A stretch of 64,000 bases of DNA from a virus (Duplodnaviria > Caudoviricetes), in the IMG/VR virus record IMGVR_UViG_2816332256_000001, positions 1 through 64,000 of that record, one strand, 5' to 3'. How positions within the stretch are numbered: position 1 is the stretch's first letter; each line of letters opens with the position of its first letter. Under the pieces are notes generated by a model, which saw only the letters and a program-made list of their open reading frames with translations, did no database searches and had not been told where the DNA came from. A program made the translations under genes and the position numbers. This document shows, one piece after another, positions 2,317 through 54,724 of the stretch.

Positions 2317-2365
2317 ATTTAAGCACACTTAATTTGAGTGAGCAACGAAAATTTAGCGTGCTTAA
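2317..2365. promoter_or_regulatory. OL operators / PL of prophage 1
   Basis: ATTTAAGCACACTTAATTT (2317-2335) is the exact reverse complement of 3163-3181; second site TTTAG-CGTG-CTTAA at 2352-2365; minus-strand TTGCTC-N17-TTAAAT. Confidence 0.7.
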
Positions 2366-2392
2366 GTTGACGCGAGATCGAGAACGCGTGCA

Positions 2393-2412
2393 TACTGTTT
2401 ATCCATACAGTA
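2393..2412. promoter_or_regulatory. LexA (SOS) box
   Basis: TACTGT-TTATCCAT-ACAGTA matches the beta/gammaproteobacterial CTGT-N8-ACAG consensus; overlaps TTGACG(2367)-N18-CATACT. Confidence 0.85.
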
Positions 2413-2452: not shown

Positions 2453-2749
2453 ATGATTCACAACGAGGGGGAGGGCGTAAGCCATCTCAAACCGGGGGAT
2501 TTGGCCGTAATTAGCCGATGTGCAAACGAGGCACATGTCGGTTTGATGGTGCGGGTGATGGGGCCGCATCCGACGCCTGAATTCGATTGGGACGTCGAGT
2601 TGCTGGGGAGGCCGGTGAAGGGATACGCGGCCGGGCACGACCGCGTGGGAGTGTTCAGGTGCGCTGCTGTTTTCGAGTGGAATCTGAGCCGCTTGGCGGC
2701 GTCGGCGCGTTCAGATCGAGAAGTTCGCCTCGAGAGCGTTCATGCATAG
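2453..2749 (+). CDS. SOS-box-preceded small protein (PGDLA family), candidate antirepressor
   Basis: 98 aa, LKPGDLAVI...VGLMVRV...WDV; convergent with cI; homologous to 48519-48842. Confidence 0.7.
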   Translation: MIHNEGEGVSHLKPGDLAVISRCANEAHVGLMVRVMGPHPTPEFDWDVELLGRPVKGYAAGHDRVGVFRCAAVFEWNLSRLAASARSDREVRLESVHA

Positions 2750-3119
2750 CCAGAACCGCCTTCAATGGGGCGTGCAGGGCCGTGACAGCCAACTCCGCCA
2801 TGCCGAGCGCAATCGCTCTCTTGAAATCGGCATAGAAGGCCTGCGCTTCGGGCGGTAATTCGTCCTGGGCATCCTTCATTGGTCCGCGCTTTTCCCAAAG
2901 CCACTCGGGGCGAACGCGTAGAAATCGCGCGACTCCAAATACCGGCGCCGCCTTCAAGTTCTCCACGTTCACTTTGCCGCTCGTCCACTGCGAGACGGCC
3001 GACGGAGAAACCCCTGCCTTGGCGGCGATTTCCTTGTCGTCAATCGACGAACCCAATTCCGCCTCGCGAAGTGCCTTGGCGTACCTGAGCCGTCCTACGA
3101 AGGTGTCTAGGTCGTTCAT
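2655..3119 (-). CDS. CI-like HTH_XRE repressor lacking the S24 peptidase domain
   Basis: 154 aa; HTH (DKEIAAKAGVSPSAVSQWTSG...VRPEWL); divergent from cro; too short for an autocleavage domain. Confidence 0.85.
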   Translation of the reverse strand: MNDLDTFVGRLRYAKALREAELGSSIDDKEIAAKAGVSPSAVSQWTSGKVNVENLKAAPVFGVARFLRVRPEWLWEKRGPMKDAQDELPPEAQAFYADFKRAIALGMAELAVTALHAPLKAVLAMHERSRGELLDLNAPTPPSGSDSTRKQQRT

Positions 3120-28399: not shown

Positions 28400-29318
28400 A
28401 TGAAACGAATTTTCGCGGCTGCGCTGTGCGCGCTTTCAACCTTCGCTTTCGGCGCTACGCTTGCGCCAATTCAACTGCTCAACCCGGCGGGATCGACGAG
28501 CGGTCAGGTCATCGCGTCGAATGGTCCTACCGCGGCGCCATCGTGGCAGAGCGTGACGTACGGGATTCTGCCGACGATCGCGGCGAATTCAGTTCTCGGG
28601 AACAGGACAGCCAGTACGGCCGCGCCTGGCGCAGTATCGTTGCCGAGTGGCAGCACCACCAACAGCGCGCTGCAATACTCGAGCGGAACCGGGTTTTCGT
28701 GCGGAAGCGCGTTCGCTCTCACGAGCGGCACGCTCGCGCAATTTGCGTCGACCACGTCCGCGCAACTCGCGGGCGCGGTGTCGGATGAGACGGGAAGCGG
28801 AGCACTCGTATTCGGGACGTCTTCGACGATTTCCAGCCCGACGCTCACCCGCACCACGACGGCCGCCGCCGTTACAGCGAGCGGTCTGATTACGCCCGCG
28901 AGCGCGGTCGGCATTAAGGGCACGACGACAAACGATAGCCCGGCCGCGGGGAGCATGGGGGAGAACCCATCTGCCGGACCTACCACGACCGGAAACCTCA
29001 CGACGGGTATCGCCGCCAACATAACGTCGCTGTCGTTGACCGCCGGTGACTGGGTTCTCACGGGAACATGCGCATGGTCGCCCTCTGGCGGCGCAAGTTT
29101 GACCGTGCAGCAGTGCGGCATCAGCACGATGTCCGCGACATTCGGCGTGTTCGGTACCACTACCAGCTTGATGATTTCGGGGGGCAGCGCATCGGGAAGT
29201 GGAATTCCGACCCCAACAGTCGACCTGAAGCTCGCAGCGCCCACCACGGTGGAACGCAGGGTTCGGATCGGGAACCGTCACCGCTACAGGGCTAATCCGC
29301 GCTCGCCGCCCCCGGTAG
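28400..29318 (+). pseudogene. Secreted Ser/Thr/Gly-rich fibre-like protein, frameshifted near 29250
   Basis: Signal peptide MKRIFAAALCALSTFAFG; after PTTV the frame turns into Arg/Pro-rich junk, while another frame continues NAGFGSGTVTATGLIRARRPR* (TAG 29316-29318). Confidence 0.65.
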
Positions 29319-30953: not shown

Positions 30954-32027
30954 TCACTGCGTCTGCTTAGGCGCGAGCCGATCCAGCCACTCCCACCCGG
31001 CCCAGCGGTCGCCGGTGTGGCGCAGGTGGGTGTACCGCTTCAGGGACGCCCAACTGCGATGGCCTGTGACCGCAGCTACGTGCGGGATATTCCATCCCAT
31101 CTCGAATAGGCGTGATGCGCCTTCATGCCGCAGGTCGTGAAAGTGCAGGTCGTCGATCGCGAGGAATTCGCATGCCCGCGTGAAGCTCGCGCTGATCGAC
31201 CGGTGGTTATAGGGAAAGATGCGCCCCTTGGCCGGCTTCACGGCATCAATAATGCGTGCTGCCTCCGGCGGCAAGTCGCACCATGTGTCGTTACCAATTT
31301 TCTGCCCCGGGTGCTTCATGTCGCGGACCAGCACCCGGTCGCCCTGGTAGTCCTCGACGGCGATCGTCGTGATTTCCTCCTGCCTGCGTGTCGAGAAAAG
31401 CGCGAAAACGATGATCTCGCGCATTGGGATCTCGGCGCGCTCGCGCGCCTCCATATCGGTGTAGTAGGAGAGGATCCGATTGAGCTCGTCGGGGGCAGGG
31501 CGCCGGTCGCGCTGCCTTGAGCGGCCAGTCACGCCGAGATTTTTCAGGACCACTGTCGCGTCATCAAGCGCTTGCGCATCCAGCGGGTACCCCCATGCTG
31601 GCCGCGCGATGCGCACGACGGCGGCCAGGTGCGACATATAGTTCCCAACCGTCTGAGGCTTTACATCGAGGGACTGGGCGAACTGGACGTATTCACTGCT
31701 CCCGATCGCCGAGCTGCGCATCGCGCCAATCTCGGCGGCAGAGATTGTCCGCAGCACCTGCTCCTTTGTGCGCCCCATGTCTTTTTTCGATTCCCGGATG
31801 TACCGGTCGATCACGTCGGCGAGCGGCGGATCTTCCAGCTTCGCTGACTCGAGCGCGCCGGGGCGCGACAGCTCGCGCTCCCGCTTATCCAGCCATGCGC
31901 GCGCAGCGGCCTCGCGGTCGAACGTCTGAGCCTGGGTGAAAACAACCCTCCCATCCTCCTTTCGGCGGATCTGGGCGGTGTAGCCTATACTTCCATCCTT
32001 GCGTTTTCTGGGGGTGATCGTGCCCAT
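30954..32027 (-). CDS. int: dusA-associated tyrosine integrase (Rci-related)
   Basis: Catalytic R (STRRQEE), HDLRHEG, TGH, KRYTH; divergent from dusA, the established DAI arrangement. Confidence 0.93.
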   Translation of the reverse strand: MGTITPRKRKDGSIGYTAQIRRKEDGRVVFTQAQTFDREAAARAWLDKRERELSRPGALESAKLEDPPLADVIDRYIRESKKDMGRTKEQVLRTISAAEIGAMRSSAIGSSEYVQFAQSLDVKPQTVGNYMSHLAAVVRIARPAWGYPLDAQALDDATVVLKNLGVTGRSRQRDRRPAPDELNRILSYYTDMEARERAEIPMREIIVFALFSTRRQEEITTIAVEDYQGDRVLVRDMKHPGQKIGNDTWCDLPPEAARIIDAVKPAKGRIFPYNHRSISASFTRACEFLAIDDLHFHDLRHEGASRLFEMGWNIPHVAAVTGHRSWASLKRYTHLRHTGDRWAGWEWLDRLAPKQTQ

Positions 32028-32145: not shown

Positions 32146-33189
32146 TTGATGCAACAGAATTTTTCAACGAAATCAACGGGTAGGCGCGTTTCCGTTGCGC
32201 CGATGCTCGACTGGACCGATCGTCATTGCCGCTCGTTCCATCGCACGCTGACGCGCGACACGTGGCTGTATACGGAAATGATCACGACGGGCGCGCTGCT
32301 GTTCGGCGACGCGCAGCGGCATCTCGCGTTCACGCCGAACGAATCGCCGGTCGCGCTGCAACTCGGCGGCAGCGAACCGGACGATCTCGCCCGCGCCGCG
32401 AAGCTCGGCGAGCAGTGGGGCTACGACGAGATCAACCTGAATTGCGGGTGCCCGTCCGAGCGCGTGCAGCGCGGCGCATTCGGTGCGTGCCTGATGAACG
32501 AGCCGCAACTCGTCGCCGACTGCGTGAAGGCGATGCGCGATGCGGTGTCGGTGCCCGTGACGGTCAAGCACCGGATCGGGGTCGACGCAGTGGAGGACTA
32601 TGCATTTGTGCGCGACTTCGTCGGCACGGTTGCGCAGGCAGGCTGCGACACGTTCATCGTGCATGCCCGCAATGCGATCCTGAAAGGGCTGTCGCCGAAG
32701 GAGAACCGCGAGATCCCGCCGCTCAAGTACGACTATGCGTATCGGCTGAAGCGCGATTTCCCGGCGCTGGAGATCGTGATCAACGGCGGGATCAAGACGC
32801 TCGACGAGGTGGCGGAGCATCTCGAGCACGTTGACGGCGTGATGCTCGGCCGCGAGGCGTATCACAACCCGTACGTGCTCGCGGGCGGCGATGCGCGCTT
32901 TTACGGATCGACTGCGCCGGCGCCGACGCGCGAAGAGGCCGAGGCGAAGCTGATCGAATATTGCGCGGCGGAGTTGAAGCGCGGCACCTATCTCGGCGCG
33001 ATCGTCCGGCACGCGCTCGGGCTGTATCGCGGTGTCGCGGGCGCACGTGGCTGGCGGCGCGTGCTGTCGGACAACAAGAAGCTCGCGCGCGGCGATCTGA
33101 GCGTGTTCGACGAGGCGCGCACGCATCTGAACGACGCTATCGAAAATTTTGAAAAAAATGCTTTGCAAGATGGAAAAGTGTTCGTATAA
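32146..33189 (+). CDS. dusA: tRNA-dihydrouridine(20/20a) synthase
   Basis: SVAPMLDWTDRHCR, QLGGS, NLNCGCPSERVQ.G.FGACLM, HAR, INGGI. Confidence 0.96.
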   Translation: MMQQNFSTKSTGRRVSVAPMLDWTDRHCRSFHRTLTRDTWLYTEMITTGALLFGDAQRHLAFTPNESPVALQLGGSEPDDLARAAKLGEQWGYDEINLNCGCPSERVQRGAFGACLMNEPQLVADCVKAMRDAVSVPVTVKHRIGVDAVEDYAFVRDFVGTVAQAGCDTFIVHARNAILKGLSPKENREIPPLKYDYAYRLKRDFPALEIVINGGIKTLDEVAEHLEHVDGVMLGREAYHNPYVLAGGDARFYGSTAPAPTREEAEAKLIEYCAAELKRGTYLGAIVRHALGLYRGVAGARGWRRVLSDNKKLARGDLSVFDEARTHLNDAIENFEKNALQDGKVFV

Positions 33190-33247: not shown

Positions 33248-33324
33248 GGTGGCTGTAGCTCAGTTGGTAGAGTCCAGGATTGTGATTCCTGTTGTCGTGG
33301 GTTCGAGTCCCATCAGCCACCCCA
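33248..33324 (+). tRNA. tRNA-His (GTG) with G-1 and encoded CCA
   Basis: 77 nt; GGTGGCTGTAGCTCAG…GATTGTGATTC…GTTCGAGTCC…CAGCCACCCCA; acceptor, anticodon and T arms pair. Confidence 0.97.
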
Positions 33325-35045: not shown

Positions 35046-36167
35046 TCAGCGTGTCGCACGCACTTTTCGTTGTCTGCGGCGATCGTATGTCTTTCGTACC
35101 ATCCGTTCGTCCGCATGGCCAGTCGCATCGATAATCCGGTCGTCGCCTTCCTCCTGGCGATCGGTCACGGCGGCCGGCCGCATGTCACGCAGCGCGAACC
35201 GTTCGAACGGCACGCAGCGCGCCTGCGCTTCCTTCTCGCAATAGCCCATCAGCCGGGACCAGTTCGTGTTCCAGCCGCTGCGCGTGTACACCTGGCCGGC
35301 GGTGTTGCCGAACACGTGGACGCTCGATGTGCGCTGCAGCGCGAGCGCCTCGTCGATCACGGCCTTCAGCTCGGGCGACCACAACACGAGTTTTACGCGC
35401 TGCTGCTCGCCGGCCTTGCGCTTCCCGATCGGCACCTCGACGCCTTCCGGCCTGATGCTCTGGCGGTGCAGCTCGCGCATCTCGGTCGGCCGGCTGACGG
35501 TGAGGTATGCCGCCTGCACGCAGAGCGCCAGAATCAAGTATGCGGAGCTGGGATGCTGATCGCCGACGCTGCGGCGCGAGCGCGCGACTTCGACCGCGAG
35601 ATCGATCTCGTCCTGACGCACGTAGCGCTGGCGCGGCCGGGTCGGGTTGTACTCGATGCCGCGGCACGGGTTCGTTTCGAGGTCGCCGCGGCGCCGGCCG
35701 TATTCGAGGATCGCGGACAGGAGGGCGATTTCCTTGTTCGCCTTCGCCGGCGCGCCGAGCTGCGCACGTTTGTCGAGGTAGCCATAGACGTGCTTCGGCT
35801 TGATCGCGGCCGGCGCCATCTTCCCGAAGACCTTGACCAAGCGCTTCGACTCGACGCGGTTCTCGTCCAGGGTGGACTGCGCCTTGCGGCGCTCGTCGGT
35901 GTGCGGTAATCCGTCCTGCCATTCGAAGTACCGCGCGACGAGCGCCTCGACCGTGCCAGGTTCGATCGCATTCCCGTTGAGAGCTTCCGCACGCTCGATC
36001 GCCTGCTTGCGGATCTCGGCGAGCGCTTCCTTGTTGTGGGCAGGCGCCGACAGGCGGAACGCCCAGCGGCCGTTCGGCAGCTTGTAGCCGAAGCTGACCT
36101 TGTGTTTCCCGTAGTGGGCGTAGAGCCGGAAGGGTAACCCGTCCGGCCGCTTGCGTCGTCCGATCAT
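35046..36167 (-). CDS. int: Tyrosine integrase of prophage 2
   Basis: LTVSRPTE (R), FALRDMRP, ATGH, KTYDRRR; arm-binding N-terminus. Confidence 0.9.
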   Translation of the reverse strand: MIGRRKRPDGLPFRLYAHYGKHKVSFGYKLPNGRWAFRLSAPAHNKEALAEIRKQAIERAEALNGNAIEPGTVEALVARYFEWQDGLPHTDERRKAQSTLDENRVESKRLVKVFGKMAPAAIKPKHVYGYLDKRAQLGAPAKANKEIALLSAILEYGRRRGDLETNPCRGIEYNPTRPRQRYVRQDEIDLAVEVARSRRSVGDQHPSSAYLILALCVQAAYLTVSRPTEMRELHRQSIRPEGVEVPIGKRKAGEQQRVKLVLWSPELKAVIDEALALQRTSSVHVFGNTAGQVYTRSGWNTNWSRLMGYCEKEAQARCVPFERFALRDMRPAAVTDRQEEGDDRIIDATGHADERMVRKTYDRRRQRKVRATR

Positions 36168-36169
36168 GA

Positions 36170-36409
36170 TTAGAGTGCGGCGAAGTTCGGTTCTTCTGAG
36201 GCGGCAGCGCGCTGCCGGCGCGCGGATGATGGCGCTGCGGTGCCGTTCATGCGGGCTTCGTAATACTCGCGCGCGACGAGCGGCACGCCGGCGATGTTGA
36301 CCGCGAACGGCCAGTGATTGCGCTCGAGCCAGCGTTTCATGCAGGCGTGGCTGCGCGGCTTGCAGCCCACCAGCTCGGCCAGCTCTGGCGTGGTGAGGTA
36401 GATGCTCAT
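36170..36409 (-). CDS. Excisionase (DUF4224-like)
   Basis: YLTTPELAELVG...RWL...GVPLV; immediately upstream of int. Confidence 0.8.
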   Translation of the reverse strand: MSIYLTTPELAELVGCKPRSHACMKRWLERNHWPFAVNIAGVPLVAREYYEARMNGTAAPSSARRQRAAASEEPNFAAL

Positions 36410-37092
36410 GGTGAGATCCTGCGAAATTCAACGACCCAGACCCAGGGATTGGTGTCCCAGCCATGCCCACGCGCCGCGTTCAGGCTGTCCCACAGGTCAT
36501 GAAAGGCGCGGATGCTGGGCGGCCGGTATGCGCCGGCGCAGTAACCGCGCATGTGATGGTCCTCGATCGTCACGCCTTCGGCGCGCGCGTCCGACTCGCT
36601 GATGCTCTGCAGGCGCTCGGCGCGCACGCGCGTGATTTCCAGCGTGATGCGCGACGCCCAGCGCGGCATGTGGATCGATGGCGTCCAGCGCTGGTAGTTG
36701 TAGAGCGTGGGGTTGTATCCCGGCGGTGCGATGACTTCGAATTGACCTCCTGCGGCATATGCGATGTTCCAACGTGTGGCTTGCGGCTGTTTCGGCGCCG
36801 CGTCAAACGGCGCCGGCATGAACGCTTCGCGCACCCACATCCGGTCGCCAATCTCGCCGAACGGCGATTTGCATCCCCATTCGCCGTCATCGCTGAATGC
36901 GCCGAAGATCTCCGGGCCGGGCGCCTCGTCGCCGCGCCGGTCGATGATCGTCGGGTGGTAACGCGCGGCGGTGATCGGCGTGACATCGACGGGCGGCTGG
37001 TGCTTCATCGCGCGGCGCGTCTGCGTCTTGCGGCCTTCGAGGATGGCGCGCACCATCGGGCCGCTGAAAAGGATCGGGCGCTCTTTCATCAT
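36406..37092 (-). CDS. ASCH/PUA-like phage protein
   Basis: KERPILFSGPMVRAILEGRKTQTRR...WTPSIHMPRWASRITLEI...NPWVWVVEF. Confidence 0.85.
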   Translation of the reverse strand: MMKERPILFSGPMVRAILEGRKTQTRRAMKHQPPVDVTPITAARYHPTIIDRRGDEAPGPEIFGAFSDDGEWGCKSPFGEIGDRMWVREAFMPAPFDAAPKQPQATRWNIAYAAGGQFEVIAPPGYNPTLYNYQRWTPSIHMPRWASRITLEITRVRAERLQSISESDARAEGVTIEDHHMRGYCAGAYRPPSIRAFHDLWDSLNAARGHGWDTNPWVWVVEFRRISP

Positions 37093-47942: not shown

Positions 47943-48337
47943 CGCGCCCTCCGTTGAAAGTAGGATTGCTAATCAAATGTCCGTCTTGAATTGCGGCGGT
48001 ACATGCGCAGCTCTCACTGGTGACGCCTCAGAAGAAGAACCGCCACCGGTCAGAACTGCATTACTCGCGCGCCCGACTACTCCCGGCCGTGCCGGCTCCG
48101 GGCCGCGCGAGGTTTGTGCCGATTACGACGCCATCGGTCACGTGTTGCTGGCTGTCTTGTGTCAGGTTCACTCGGGTATTGCATGCCGCTGCGGTCTTCC
48201 GCAGCGTCCGTCCTGACTCACGACGCTGATCGCGCCGGCCGGTTGCTCCGCAAGTGCGGTCCCGGCTTACCTTCGATTGTTAGAGAGCGATCCGCTCGGG
48301 GCGGTGGCGCGGCGTCGGTGTCGCGTTGAGAAGAATT

Positions 48338-48375
48338 ATAACTAAGGTTATCGGTGTGTCAACAACCAAAGTTAT
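48338..48375. promoter_or_regulatory. OL operators of prophage 2
   Basis: ATAAC-TAAG-GTTAT (48338-48351) and ACAAC-CAAA-GTTAT (48362-48375); same palindrome as OR. Confidence 0.75.
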
Positions 48376-48471
48376 TGTGAGCGACGAAAATTTGTAACAG
48401 GCTGCTCTATGGCGGTTTGTTAAGCGCCTGCTGACAGCAGTTGAAAGTATTCGGGAACTGGCGCTAAACTG

Positions 48472-48487
48472 CTGTACATGCATACAG
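48472..48487. promoter_or_regulatory. LexA (SOS) box
   Basis: CTGT-ACATGCAT-ACAG directly downstream of TTGAAA(48441)-N18-TAAACT. Confidence 0.8.
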
Positions 48488-48518
48488 TATCGTGGCAAAC
48501 AGAAGACGAGGGCGGCCA

Positions 48519-48842
48519 GTGAAAGAAGAATCGAAGACGAGCCTGCGCTGCAGGCCTGGGGACTTGGCAAGGGTGGTGGCAAGCAGGAACCCGGCGCTGG
48601 TCGGCACGATCGTGGCGATTCAGCGGCTGCGGTCGGATGGTCGATGGGATGTGCTGCTCGAGAAACCCGCGTTTGGTTTCACGGAGCGGATGAAGCGACC
48701 GGTCGTGACTCGAGAGTTTTCGTTCTGGGATGCGTCGCTGGAACCGCTCCCTGAAGTCGCGCTGCGACTCAGTCGCCAGGCGGCCTGTCTTCGTCCTGAC
48801 TTGACGAAAGGCGGGGAGCTGACTGGGCTAGTAGCCCACTGA
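48519..48842 (+). CDS. SOS-box-preceded small protein (PGDLA family), candidate antirepressor
   Basis: CRPGDLARVV...VGTIVAI...WDV; GAGG RBS before GTG 48519; convergent with cI. Confidence 0.7.
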   Translation: MKEESKTSLRCRPGDLARVVASRNPALVGTIVAIQRLRSDGRWDVLLEKPAFGFTERMKRPVVTREFSFWDASLEPLPEVALRLSRQAACLRPDLTKGGELTGLVAH

Positions 48843-49113
48843 TGTACGCCTCGACTTTGGCGCGGCCGATCTCGTCGAGCCGATCGTAGCCCGGCGGAAC
48901 CGGTTGGGCTGCGTCGCCGAATTCGAGCCACTCCAGTGTGGTTTGCAGTGCGCGCGCGAGCGCGAACCCATTCGTGGTCGTGGTGCTGCCGCCTCGTTCA
49001 ACCTTGGCTATCGCCGGCTGCGATACGCCGACAAGTTCCGCGATGTGCTTCTGGGACAGGCCCAGTGCCTCGCGACGCTCCTTTGCCCGGCGCCCGAATT
49101 CAGGATTTTCCAT
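48769..49113 (-). CDS. CI-like HTH_XRE repressor lacking the S24 peptidase domain
   Basis: FGRRAKERREALGLSQKHIAELVGVSQPAIAKVERG...LEWL; ~114 aa. Confidence 0.85.
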   Translation of the reverse strand: MENPEFGRRAKERREALGLSQKHIAELVGVSQPAIAKVERGGSTTTTNGFALARALQTTLEWLEFGDAAQPVPPGYDRLDEIGRAKVEAYISGLLAQSAPRLSSSQDEDRPPGD

Positions 49114-49125
49114 AGCGGGCATCGT

Positions 49126-49191
49126 ATAACCTTGGTTGTAGCCGGGCAAATAACCAAAGTTCTTGCGGATGAATAACTTTGGTTATAGTAT
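49126..49191. promoter_or_regulatory. OR1-3 with divergent PR/PRM of prophage 2
   Basis: ATAAC-CTTG-GTTGT 49126, ATAAC-CAAA-GTTCT 49150, ATAAC-TTTG-GTTAT 49173; TTGCGG-N17-TAGTAT (+); TTGCCC-N17-TACGAT (-). Confidence 0.75.
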
Positions 49192-49197
49192 TGCCGC

Positions 49198-49509
49198 ATG
49201 AAACCGACCAATTGCTCCGTGCCGGCTCTGCAGGCAGCGATCCAAAAAGCTGGGTCGCAGTCCGCACTTGCCCGCCTGATCGGCAAAAAGCAGCCGCACA
49301 TCCACAAGTGGCTGCATTCCCCCAATGCAATGAGACCCGAGAACTGCGTCCTCGTGGGGAATGCCGTCGGCATCCCGTACAGGGACTTTCGCCCCACCGA
49401 TTGGCATCTGATCTGGCCTGATCCCGCGGTAGCTGCCTCGACGGGGCGCTTGGACGCGTGCATGTCAGAAGGAGGGCAGCGCGACGTGCTTCGCGCAGGC
49501 GTCGACTGA
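49198..49509 (+). CDS. Cro/YdaS-like protein
   Basis: LQAAIQKAGSQSALARLIGKKQPHIHKWL. Confidence 0.85.
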   Translation: MKPTNCSVPALQAAIQKAGSQSALARLIGKKQPHIHKWLHSPNAMRPENCVLVGNAVGIPYRDFRPTDWHLIWPDPAVAASTGRLDACMSEGGQRDVLRAGVD

Positions 49510-53361: not shown

Positions 53362-54467
53362 ATCAACTCCCGAATCCTCTCACCCCAGCGGACTGCAACC
53401 TCCGCGATTTCCCGTTCATGCCGCTCGAGGTGAAGCGTCTGCTGACGTCCGAGACGTGGATCCTCGGCAGCGGTGACGAGCGCGCGGCCGCGATCACGTT
53501 GTGGCTCGAAAGCTGGCATCAGATCCCGGCCGCGAGCCTGCCGGCCGACGACCGCATGCTCGGCCATCTGTCCCAGTCGAAGAACTGGAAGCGTGTGAAG
53601 GAACACGCGCTGCGCGGATGGGTGAAGTGTGCCGACGGCCGTCTCTATCACCCGGTCGTCGCCGAGAAGGTGCTCGAAGCGTGGGTCTCGAAGCTGACCA
53701 GCAGCTTGTCCGGCACCACGGGCAACGCGAAGCGCTGGGGTATCGAGGTCGACACGGTGGCAGTGCGTGCGCAGATCGTCGAGGCCGCGAACCTCCTGAA
53801 AGCGATCGCCCCGCAATCTGAATGGCTGAGAAAAAAGCAGGTCCGGGAGATCGTATCCGATTCGCGTCGCGATCCCGATCCGATCGCCCCCCGATCACCA
53901 ACGCAATCGCCCCCCGATTCGCCCCCCGATCGCAAGAGAGAGGGAGAGGGAGATGTAAACACAGCAAGCGGCGGCGGCACAGCACAGGGAGAGGGGGAAG
54001 AACCGCCGATCGCCGCCGCCGCTTTCGTCGAAATCCTCCGCTCGTCGGGCGTGGGCTTTGCCGCCGATGACGCACGATTGGCGGGCTGGCACGGCCGCGG
54101 CGTGACGGCCGACGACCTGCGCGCGGCGATTGCCACGGGGCGCAAGCGCCGAGAGCGCGAGCGCTCCGAGCAGCCGCTGAACCTCGGCTTGCTCGAGCTG
54201 ATCCTCGGCGATCTGCTCGCCGCGCGCGCCGCGAAGCCAGCGCCCGGGACACGCACCGTCGGTGACTGGTGGCGGTCGTGGACCGGAATCGTCGAGCACG
54301 GCGGCACGCTCGGCGTCGAGCAGGGCCGCGACGAACCTCCGTTCGATTTCAAGCTGCGCGTGTTCGACGCCGCGGGCGACGGCCCGTGGTGGGACGACCA
54401 CAACCGCGCATTTCGCAACACTGCCGGCCCCGTCGCGGCCGGCGCTTTGATGGGGGAAGGGCGATGA
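53358..54467 (+). CDS. DUF1376/YdaU-family replication initiator
   Basis: DCNLRDFPFMPLEV.RL..S..W...LW..SWHQ.PA.SLP.DD...DGRLYHPVVAE. Confidence 0.85.
   Translation: MNQLPNPLTPADCNLRDFPFMPLEVKRLLTSETWILGSGDERAAAITLWLESWHQIPAASLPADDRMLGHLSQSKNWKRVKEHALRGWVKCADGRLYHPVVAEKVLEAWVSKLTSSLSGTTGNAKRWGIEVDTVAVRAQIVEAANLLKAIAPQSEWLRKKQVREIVSDSRRDPDPIAPRSPTQSPPDSPPDRKREGEGDVNTASGGGTAQGEGEEPPIAAAAFVEILRSSGVGFAADDARLAGWHGRGVTADDLRAAIATGRKRRERERSEQPLNLGLLELILGDLLAARAAKPAPGTRTVGDWWRSWTGIVEHGGTLGVEQGRDEPPFDFKLRVFDAAGDGPWWDDHNRAFRNTAGPVAAGALMGEGR
53883..53930 (+). repeat. Iterons (A/T)TCGCCCCCCGAT x3, probable ori of prophage 2
   Basis: Copies at 53883, 53906 and 53918 inside the initiator gene, followed by a purine tract. 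Confidence 0.65.
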
Positions 54468-54724
54468 ACTGCAAACCGGGGGATCTGGCCGTGATCACGC
54501 ATGGTACGGCTCGCGATCGCATCGTCGAGGTGAAGGGGCCTTACGGCGACTACCTGCACCTCGGCTTCTGCTGGTACGTCGAAGCGCCTACGCCGGTCCC
54601 AGCAATGGACGCGAAGACCGGCTTGACCTGTCACATCACGAACGGCTGGTGTCCGGACATGTGGCTGCGGCCGATCAGTGGCGTGCCGGTGATGGATGAC
54701 ATCGAGGACGAGGTGACGGCATGA
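54464..54724 (+). CDS. PGDLA-family small protein (paralog of the SOS-linked genes)
   Basis: MNCKPGDLAVI...IVEV...WYV...LRPI. Confidence 0.7.
   Translation: MNCKPGDLAVITHGTARDRIVEVKGPYGDYLHLGFCWYVEAPTPVPAMDAKTGLTCHITNGWCPDMWLRPISGVPVMDDIEDEVTA

What the first reader, a model, noticed from the sequence alone, without database searches (positions are those of the whole stretch)
48441..49113. Prophage 2 repeats the same switch: SOS box, PGDLA gene, truncated CI
Seen: CTGT-ACATGCAT-ACAG (48472-48487) directly after TTGAAA-N18-TAAACT; gene 48519-48842 (CRPGDLARVV..VGTIVAI..WDV) convergent on a ~114-aa peptidase-less CI. The two prophages have different operators, heads and integrases but share this architecture and protein family. 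This independent recurrence supports function. It also raises cross-induction or specificity between co-resident prophages.
Basis: partly seen in the sequence, partly recalled or inferred. Interest (0 to 1): 0.78.

Follow-up and report, generated by a model that had tools for sequence, protein, structure and literature searches.

The report
SOS-controlled candidate antirepressor facing short CI
A Burkholderia prophage keeps a small gene of unknown family behind a LexA (DNA-damage) operator, pointing into a repressor gene that cannot cut itself; the same trio recurs in dozens of related phages, so this is most likely how they sense DNA damage.

Summary
A perfect LexA box (48472-48487) abuts a TTGAAA-N18-TAAACT promoter. 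It drives a 107-aa gene (48519-48842) whose 3' end overlaps by 74 nt a convergent 114-aa repressor with an HTH domain only (48769-49113). Prophage 1 carries a 29%-identical homologue in the same layout.

In 400 Burkholderiaceae species genomes the family has 59 copies. Forty-two have a perfect CTGT-N8-ACAG box just upstream, and all 42 face an overlapping convergent ORF. Only 4 other boxes occur in the 183 kb fetched. None of 34 partners scanned has an S24 peptidase domain. phiE125, KS9, Magia, Bcep176 and phi644-2 share the module.

The protein is a small SH3/KOW-like beta-barrel with no Pfam family. It is unrelated to 186 Tum and P4 epsilon, and nothing in the Gifsy-2 or N15 genomes resembles it.

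Best reading (about 0.6): a new, non-homologous family of LexA-controlled antirepressor, probably aimed at the repressor's conserved C-terminal helix. LexA-independent paralogues lie in early operons and in islands with a P4-type primase. The scan's only other notes on this family are in this same genome (e1-5852888, e1-5852900).

The parts
48335..48362 (-). Leftward early promoter (PL-like), TTGACA-16-TATAAT
   Evidence: 12/12 consensus match. It is flanked by operator-like palindromes.
48337..48376 (.). Left operator copies (TATAACTAAGGTTAT 48337-48351; AACCAAAGTTATT 48364-48376)
   Evidence: Inverted and direct matches to the three copies in the cI-cro gap (I1, I5, I6).
48441..48470 (+). 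SOS promoter TTGAAA-N18-TAAACT
   Evidence: The same hexamers and spacing are conserved in most homologous loci.
48472..48487 (.). LexA operator CTGT-N8-ACAG, covering the transcription start region
   Evidence: The host lexA genes of a Burkholderia and a Pandoraea genome carry two such boxes.
48519..48842 (+). Candidate antirepressor, 107 aa: beta-barrel core about residues 10-80, disordered tail 87-107
   Evidence: No Pfam family.
48769..48842 (.). 74-nt 3'-3' overlap of the two convergent genes; no terminator-like site between them
   Evidence: Coordinates. Overlaps of 27-98 nt in the first 41 box-bearing homologous loci.
48769..49113 (-). CI-type repressor, 114 aa: HTH domain 4-65, linker, conserved helix 81-98, acidic tail ending DEDRPxGD
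49126..49186 (.). Right operator region, three ATAAC..GTTAT-type copies
   Evidence: I4, I5, I6.
49198..49509 (+). Cro-like (YdaS-type HTH) gene
2395..2410 (.). Prophage 1 LexA box, overlapping a TTGACG-N18-CATACT promoter
2453..2749 (+). Prophage 1 homologue, 98 aa
2655..3119 (-). Prophage 1 repressor, 154 aa, no S24 domain; 95-nt overlap with the small gene
54461..54724 (+). Third, distant paralogue (87 aa) in the early right operon of prophage 2, with no LexA box
   Evidence: Local hmmsearch with profile A6, E 6.4e-10. BLASTP to the prophage-1 protein, E 7e-5.

Best explanation
This is an indirect SOS switch.

1. In the lysogen, host LexA sits on the box that abuts the -10 element and covers the start site of a strong-looking promoter, so the 107-aa gene is silent. 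The short CI, which has no autocleavage domain, holds the left and right operators.
2. DNA damage activates RecA and LexA cleaves itself.
3. The promoter fires and the small beta-barrel protein is made.
4. The protein inactivates CI without cleavage. The likely route is binding the conserved C-terminal helix module and blocking oligomerisation or cooperative operator binding. PL and PR then open.
5. Because the two genes converge and overlap with no terminator, SOS transcription probably also lowers cI expression by collision or antisense pairing, as a secondary effect.

Shown at sequence level: the operator, the promoter geometry, the non-cleavable CI, and conservation of the trio. Inferred: LexA binding in vivo, the protein-CI contact and its site, and the antisense contribution.
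For: - Box position: it starts one base after the -10 element. In 52 distinct upstream regions of homologues, 28 have the -10 ending 1 nt before CTGT, 32 have the extended TA..TA flanks, and the N8 spacer is 77% A+T in G+C-rich DNA.
- Host lexA genes carry two such boxes.
- Systematic sample: 59 copies, 42 with a perfect box and all 42 with a convergent overlapping ORF. Only 4 other boxes occur in 183 kb.
- Phages: six of six phage loci inspected have the box 27-34 nt before the start codon.
- Partners: 27 were scanned, with HTH_3 in 12, Phage_CI_repr in 8 and S24 in none. Seven more had no S24. The KS9 partner gp41 is named the phage repressor in the title of Lynch 2010, and PMC3091744 describes the mutant as a repressor knockout.
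- Inducibility: the vB_E192a and vB_E264-type phages carrying the homologue bear the names that PMC12860723 gives to mitomycin-C-induced prophages. UV has released phages from B. thailandensis (Woods 2002, cited in PMC7266877).
- Co-variation: the small protein's core follows the repressor's C-terminal module, not its HTH. Among pairs with unlike HTH domains, core similarity is 0.53 when the C-modules are alike and 0.28 when they are not (Mantel r 0.33, p 2e-4).
- The protein is real and folded: core pLDDT above 90, and 151 representative relatives.
- In both prophages the only other perfect box in the 83.8-kb record precedes an SRAP/YedK-like gene.
Against: - There is no binding or expression evidence.
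- The co-variation is confounded by linkage, because the small gene lies next to the 3' end of cI. There are also exceptions: L041 and L047 pair an alpha-type core with a beta-type C-module.
- Seventeen of 59 copies have no LexA box and no adjacent repressor, so the fold is not tied to this context.
- The fold is a generic SH3/KOW barrel with no functional relative.
- Inducibility of this particular prophage is unknown.
Confidence: 0.6

Rival explanations
1. The SOS-induced product is an accessory function unrelated to induction, for example a host-directed inhibitor, a DNA-damage modulator or a defence/exclusion factor. It would simply be parked in the immunity region, much as rexAB sits beside cI in lambda. 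Induction of the short CI would occur by some other route.
For: Paralogues occur without LexA boxes or repressors, in early operons and in primase islands. The generic fold gives no functional lead. Other LexA-boxed cargo exists in the record, the SRAP-like gene.
Against: Box-bearing copies co-occur perfectly with convergent, peptidase-less repressors: 42/42 face a convergent ORF, and 0 of 34 partners scanned have S24. No other perfect LexA box lies in either prophage's regulatory region. The core co-varies with the repressor's C-module.
Confidence: 0.2
2. The RNA does the work. LexA-controlled convergent transcription runs into cI and silences it by polymerase collision or antisense pairing. 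The ORF would be secondary.
For: A 3' overlap of 27-98 nt was measured in the first 41 box-bearing loci, and an overlapping convergent ORF is present in all 42 of the systematic tally. No terminator-like site lies between the genes.
Against: The protein sequence, motifs and fold are conserved down to 25-30% identity. Paralogues persist where there is no cI to oppose. Stopping new cI synthesis would not remove existing repressor quickly.
Confidence: 0.1
3. The protein acts on the SOS machinery itself (LexA or RecA), as DinI or GIL01 gp7 do, rather than on CI.
For: It is SOS-controlled and small. The 186 antirepressor Tum carries a DinI-like part (annotation).
Against: There is no similarity to Tum/DinI (hhalign probability 0.2%; no Pfam hit). 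This reading does not explain how a non-cleavable CI would be inactivated, nor the co-variation with the CI C-module.
Confidence: 0.05

Closest known systems
Coliphage 186 Tum and its LexA-repressed promoter p95
   Same: Both have a non-cleavable CI and a small gene whose promoter -10 is covered by a LexA box about 20 nt before the start codon. In 186 the box lies at 29044-29063 and tum starts at 29082. In 186 the product reversibly blocks CI DNA binding.
   Different: There is no sequence relationship (hhalign probability 0.2%; no profile hit in the 186 genome). Tum carries a DinI-like part and lies at the far end of the genome. Here the protein is an SH3/KOW-like barrel inside the immunity region, convergent on and overlapping cI.
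Salmonella Gifsy-1/-2/-3 antirepressors GfoA, GftA, GfhA (Lemire et al. 2011, PMC3121763)
   Same: Short repressors are not cleaved on induction. LexA-controlled small antirepressors do the work. Several co-resident prophages are triggered together, with partial cross-reactivity.
   Different: The Gifsy genes lie next to a dinI homologue, downstream of the replication genes, not beside the repressor. No profile match was found in the Gifsy-2 genome.
N15 AntC (LexA-controlled antirepressor of the linear plasmid prophage; recalled from memory)
   Same: The same logic: LexA controls an antirepressor, which acts on a repressor.
   Different: No profile match was found in the N15 genome. The location differs.
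Satellite phage P4 epsilon (helper derepression protein)
   Same: The LexA-independent subfamily (MAELRCKIGDLAIV...) sits between an AlpA-like regulator and a P4-type primase. That is the position epsilon holds in P4.
   Different: There is no sequence similarity (hhalign probability 0.1%). The parallel is positional only.

Membership tests
LexA-controlled antirepressor switch (functional class) | The repressor lacks the S24 autocleavage domain | tested here: met
   CI2 has HTH_3 only. Zero of 34 partner ORFs scanned have S24.
LexA-controlled antirepressor switch (functional class) | A LexA operator overlaps the promoter of the small gene | tested here: met
   Forty-two of 59 family copies carry the box.
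LexA-controlled antirepressor switch (functional class) | Transcription is repressed by LexA and induced by DNA damage in vivo | not testable with these tools
   The RNA runs found were assembled contigs only and carry no strand or condition information.
LexA-controlled antirepressor switch (functional class) | The product binds and inactivates the repressor | not testable with these tools
Only indirect co-variation is available.
Tum / DinI-like family | Sequence homology to 186 Tum | tested here: not met
   hhalign probability 0.2%. No Pfam DinI hit.
Gifsy GftA-type and N15 AntC-type antirepressors | Sequence homology | tested here: not met
   A six-frame profile search of the Gifsy-2 and N15 genomes gave no match at E <= 1. 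tblastn against 50,697 phage records hit Burkholderia phages only.
P4 epsilon | Sequence homology | tested here: not met
   hhalign probability 0.1%.
PHROG phrog_2529 (unknown function) | A profile match | tested here: inconclusive
   Weak hits, E 1e-4 to 8e-3, for the prophage-1 protein and seven relatives. There was none for the prophage-2 protein.
KOW / SH3-like small beta-barrels | Fold similarity | tested here: inconclusive
   The best Foldseek PDB E-value was 1.9e-3, to L24, L21e, NusG-KOW, NdhS and PsaE. This is a generic barrel.

The most novel reading that the evidence does not exclude
The family is a modular antirepressor that recognises a short C-terminal helix module shared by otherwise unrelated repressors. 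One protein type can then serve many immunity types. LexA-independent copies, in phage early operons and in islands with a P4-type primase, would be used to induce other resident prophages. Together these would form a cross-element induction network in Burkholderia.
Probability: 0.2. Interest if true: 0.75.

Novelty: new variant of a known kind. Interest (0 to 1): 0.55.

Why it matters
The logic (LexA, then an antirepressor, then a non-cleavable repressor) is known from 186, Gifsy and N15. What is new is that an unannotated, non-homologous protein family appears to fill the role. It occurs in about 13% of sampled Burkholderiaceae species genomes.

It is also present in well-used Burkholderia phages: phiE125, KS9, Bcep176, phi644-2 and Magia. 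In those records the gene is labelled hypothetical, called in the wrong frame, or not called at all.

If confirmed, the finding would do three things.
- It explains how these phages respond to mitomycin C and UV.
- It gives a handle for controlling induction in phage-therapy and lysogeny work.
- It offers a clean system for studying how one antirepressor fold tracks a repressor's oligomerisation module while DNA-binding domains are swapped.

Tried and rejected
The contexts of distant representatives outside Burkholderiaceae were therefore not examined.
- The search for related loci with the mixed alignment: failed because no stretch was conserved enough.
- RNA runs: only small shares matched. 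A 9.2-kb contig from an RNA library covers an about 90%-identical relative across the whole stretch but says nothing about strand, start or SOS dependence.
- Foldseek against PDB and BFVD, and the ESM Atlas: only generic barrels and 'hypothetical' clusters.
- Pfam DUF6093: sub-threshold hit (13.9 bits against a cut-off of 27.9), rejected.
- Homology to 186 Tum and P4 epsilon, and any match in the Gifsy-2 or N15 genomes: rejected.
- Class-wide sample of 400 genomes: no further hits.
- The KS9 repressor paper (PMC2812329) is not held. I relied on its title and on the description in PMC3091744.
- Literature searches found no description of this family or of an SOS antirepressor in Burkholderia phages. 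The LexA-regulated 'hypB' of Burkholderia in PMC3323433 was not identified and remains a lead only.

Full report
**Observation.** The sequence is as described. TTGAAA (48441-48446) and TAAACT (48465-48470) are 18 nt apart, and CTGTACATGCATACAG follows at 48472-48487. Only two perfect CTGT-N8-ACAG sites occur in the 64-kb window, at 2395-2410 and 48472-48487. Two sites are not improbable by count (shuffle mean 0.35). However, each lies 31-42 nt upstream of the start codon of one of two homologous small genes.

The prophage-2 gene most likely starts at GTG 48519. A GAGGG motif lies upstream, database homologues are 107 aa, and phage Magia is annotated the same way. The gene ends at 48842. The convergent gene 48769-49113 encodes a 114-aa protein with an HTH_3 domain and nothing else. 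The two genes overlap by 74 nt at their 3' ends.

Cro-like (49198-49509) and CII-position genes follow. Operator-like ATAAC..GTTAT palindromes lie in the cI-cro gap (49126-49186). They also flank a perfect leftward TTGACA-16-TATAAT promoter at 48362-48335. The SOS-controlled gene therefore sits inside the immunity region, between the left operator and cI.

**The prophage-1 counterpart.** It has the same layout: box 2395-2410, 98-aa gene 2453-2749, and a 154-aa repressor 2655-3119 with a 95-nt overlap. The small proteins share 29% identity (E 3e-6). The repressors are unrelated.

Host dusA (32146-33189) and tRNA-His (33249-33324) separate the two prophages. Each prophage has its own integrase, at 30954-32027 and 35046-36470.

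**Family-wide test.**
- tblastn finds homologues only in Burkholderia phages: 35 records, including phiE125, KS9, Magia, Bups phi1, Bcep176 and phi644-2.
- All six phage loci I fetched have a perfect box 27-34 nt before the start codon and a convergent short repressor.
- A profile search of 1.84 billion representatives gives 151 relatives, nearly all 85-133 aa.
- In 400 species genomes of the family of Burkholderia sp. Ac-20344, 53 genomes have a match.

After fetching the remaining hits with E <= 1e-8, a script counted 59 distinct copies. Forty-two have a perfect box at most 170 nt upstream of the profile match, and every one of those 42 has a convergent ORF of at least 100 aa overlapping its 3' end. 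Only 4 other perfect boxes occur in the 183 kb fetched. A class-wide sample of 400 genomes gave no further hit, so the family is concentrated in Burkholderiaceae.

**Promoter-operator geometry.** The geometry is conserved even where the proteins are only about 35% identical. In 28 of 52 distinct upstream regions a TTGAAA-N18-TAAACT-type -10 ends one base before CTGT. In 32 of 52 the extended TA..TA flanks are present. The N8 spacer is 77% A+T. As a control, the lexA genes of a Burkholderia and a Pandoraea genome are each preceded by two such boxes.

**The partners.** Of 27 convergent ORFs scanned, 12 hit HTH_3, 8 hit Phage_CI_repr and none hit Peptidase_S24. Seven more have no Pfam match at all.

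The Pfam-orphan partner types include the phiE125 gp52 / KS9 gp41 type. Lynch et al. 2010 identify KS9 gp41 as the phage repressor in their title, and PMC3091744 describes the mutant as a repressor knockout.

Phages with the module bear the names that PMC12860723 assigns to prophages recovered after mitomycin C (vB_E192a, vB_E264 and others). UV has released phages from B. thailandensis (Woods 2002, cited in PMC7266877). That paper also describes a Burkholderia phage, PhiE067, whose repressor has a LexA-like peptidase domain.

**Anatomy of the proteins.** The small protein folds as a confident small beta-barrel: residues about 10-80 with pLDDT around 90, and a disordered tail at 87-107. Structure searches return only generic KOW/SH3 barrels and uncharacterised phage proteins. 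It has no Pfam family, only weak phrog_2529 matches of unknown function, and only 'hypothetical' clusters in the Atlas.

CI2 is modelled as an HTH domain (helices 4-65), a linker, a helix at 81-98 and a disordered acidic tail. That helix plus tail, P-GW--LD--GRAKVEAYISGLLAQ...DEDRPxGD, is shared by repressors whose N-terminal domains are unrelated. The partners fall into a few such C-terminal classes.

Similarity of the small protein's core follows the C-terminal class rather than the HTH type. Among pairs with unlike HTH domains, core similarity is 0.53 when the C-modules are alike and 0.28 when they are not. Pairs with like HTH but unlike C-modules score 0.26 (Mantel r 0.33, p 2e-4).

This fits recognition of the C-terminal module. 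It is confounded by linkage, because the small gene abuts the 3' end of cI, and L041 and L047 are exceptions. CI1 and CI2 belong to different C-classes, which argues for separate specificities within this lysogen.

**Mechanism.** The best-supported reading is the 186/Gifsy logic carried out by an unrelated protein. LexA holds the gene off. DNA damage removes LexA. The barrel protein then inactivates the non-cleavable CI, probably through its C-terminal helix. Convergent, unterminated transcription into cI may add interference.

The operator, geometry, repressor type and conservation are shown at sequence level. LexA binding, the protein-CI contact and the antisense effect are inferred.

**Comparison with known systems.**
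- 186 p95/tum has the same operator-to-start geometry, but Tum is unrelated.
- No profile match exists in the 186, Gifsy-2 or N15 genomes.
- Lemire et al. 2011 (PMC3121763) describe the Gifsy antirepressors and their crosstalk. Those genes lie beside dinI, not beside the repressor.

I therefore file this as working like a LexA-controlled antirepressor, but not as a member of any described antirepressor family.

**Copies outside the switch.** Seventeen of the 59 copies lack a box.
- Ten form a tight subfamily (MAELRCKIGDLAIV...) between an AlpA-like regulator and a P4-type primase. That is the position of epsilon in P4, though the sequences are unrelated.
- Four are tandem pairs in early operons. 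One pair lies downstream of an Ant-like gene, the other after an excisionase.
- The remaining three are single box-less copies (L060, L074, L084), whose contexts I did not resolve.
- The window itself holds a distant third paralogue at 54461-54724, in the early right operon.

These copies fit trans-acting derepression of other elements. Equally, they caution that the fold may have another target.

**Verdict.** The function is probable but unproven. I rate the novelty as a new variant of a known kind and the interest as moderate.

Noticed in passing
window 54461-54724 (+): This is a distant third paralogue of the family (MNCKPGDLAVI...LRPISG). It is translationally adjacent to the DUF1376 replication-type gene in the early right operon of prophage 2 and has no LexA box. 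The related prophage in Burkholderia sp. Ac-20344 has it too (L056).
   Followed up: partly
record G000:C1:83068-83083 (outside the window; L087:1569-1584): The third perfect LexA box of the 83.8-kb record lies about 48 nt upstream of a gene starting MCTNY. This resembles an SRAP/YedK-type SOS-response-associated peptidase, judged from the sequence and from memory, with no profile search run. It lies past the lysis genes, at or beyond the right end of prophage 2.
   Followed up: partly
L061-L070 (e.g. L063:1500-1803): A tightly conserved LexA-independent subfamily is found in about 10 Burkholderiaceae genomes. It lies between an AlpA-like regulator and a P4-type primase, at the position epsilon holds in P4. 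These may be satellite-like islands carrying a helper-derepression gene.
   Followed up: partly
L032:1128-1725 (-) and L044:1501-2065 (+): These are tandem pairs of box-less paralogues in early operons. One pair lies directly downstream of an Ant-like (phrog_63) anti-repressor gene, the other after an excisionase.
   Followed up: partly
L001 (phiE125), L005 (phi644-2), L006 (phiBtTUL1a): These are annotation gaps. phiE125 gp51 is called in another frame across the LexA box, and the 109-aa homologue is not annotated. phi644-2 has no call there. phiBtTUL1a calls an ORF on the opposite strand.
   Followed up: yes
C-termini of the repressors (window 48769-48840; loci): Each C-terminal class of repressor ends in its own conserved short motif: DEDRPxGD, GRLNP, DLPHLQP or LLDLNAP. 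These are encoded within the overlap with the small gene's tail. They could be a degradation tag or a docking motif.
   Followed up: no
window 48748-48815: In an about 90%-identical relative seen in an RNA-library contig, the 66 nt spanning the gene overlap are replaced by diverged sequence of the same length. This may be a recombination or divergence hot spot at the module junction.
   Followed up: no
window 2355-2372: In prophage 1 a half-copy of the CI1 operator (GTGCTTAAG) abuts the -35 element of the SOS promoter. CI1 may therefore also dampen that promoter.
   Followed up: no
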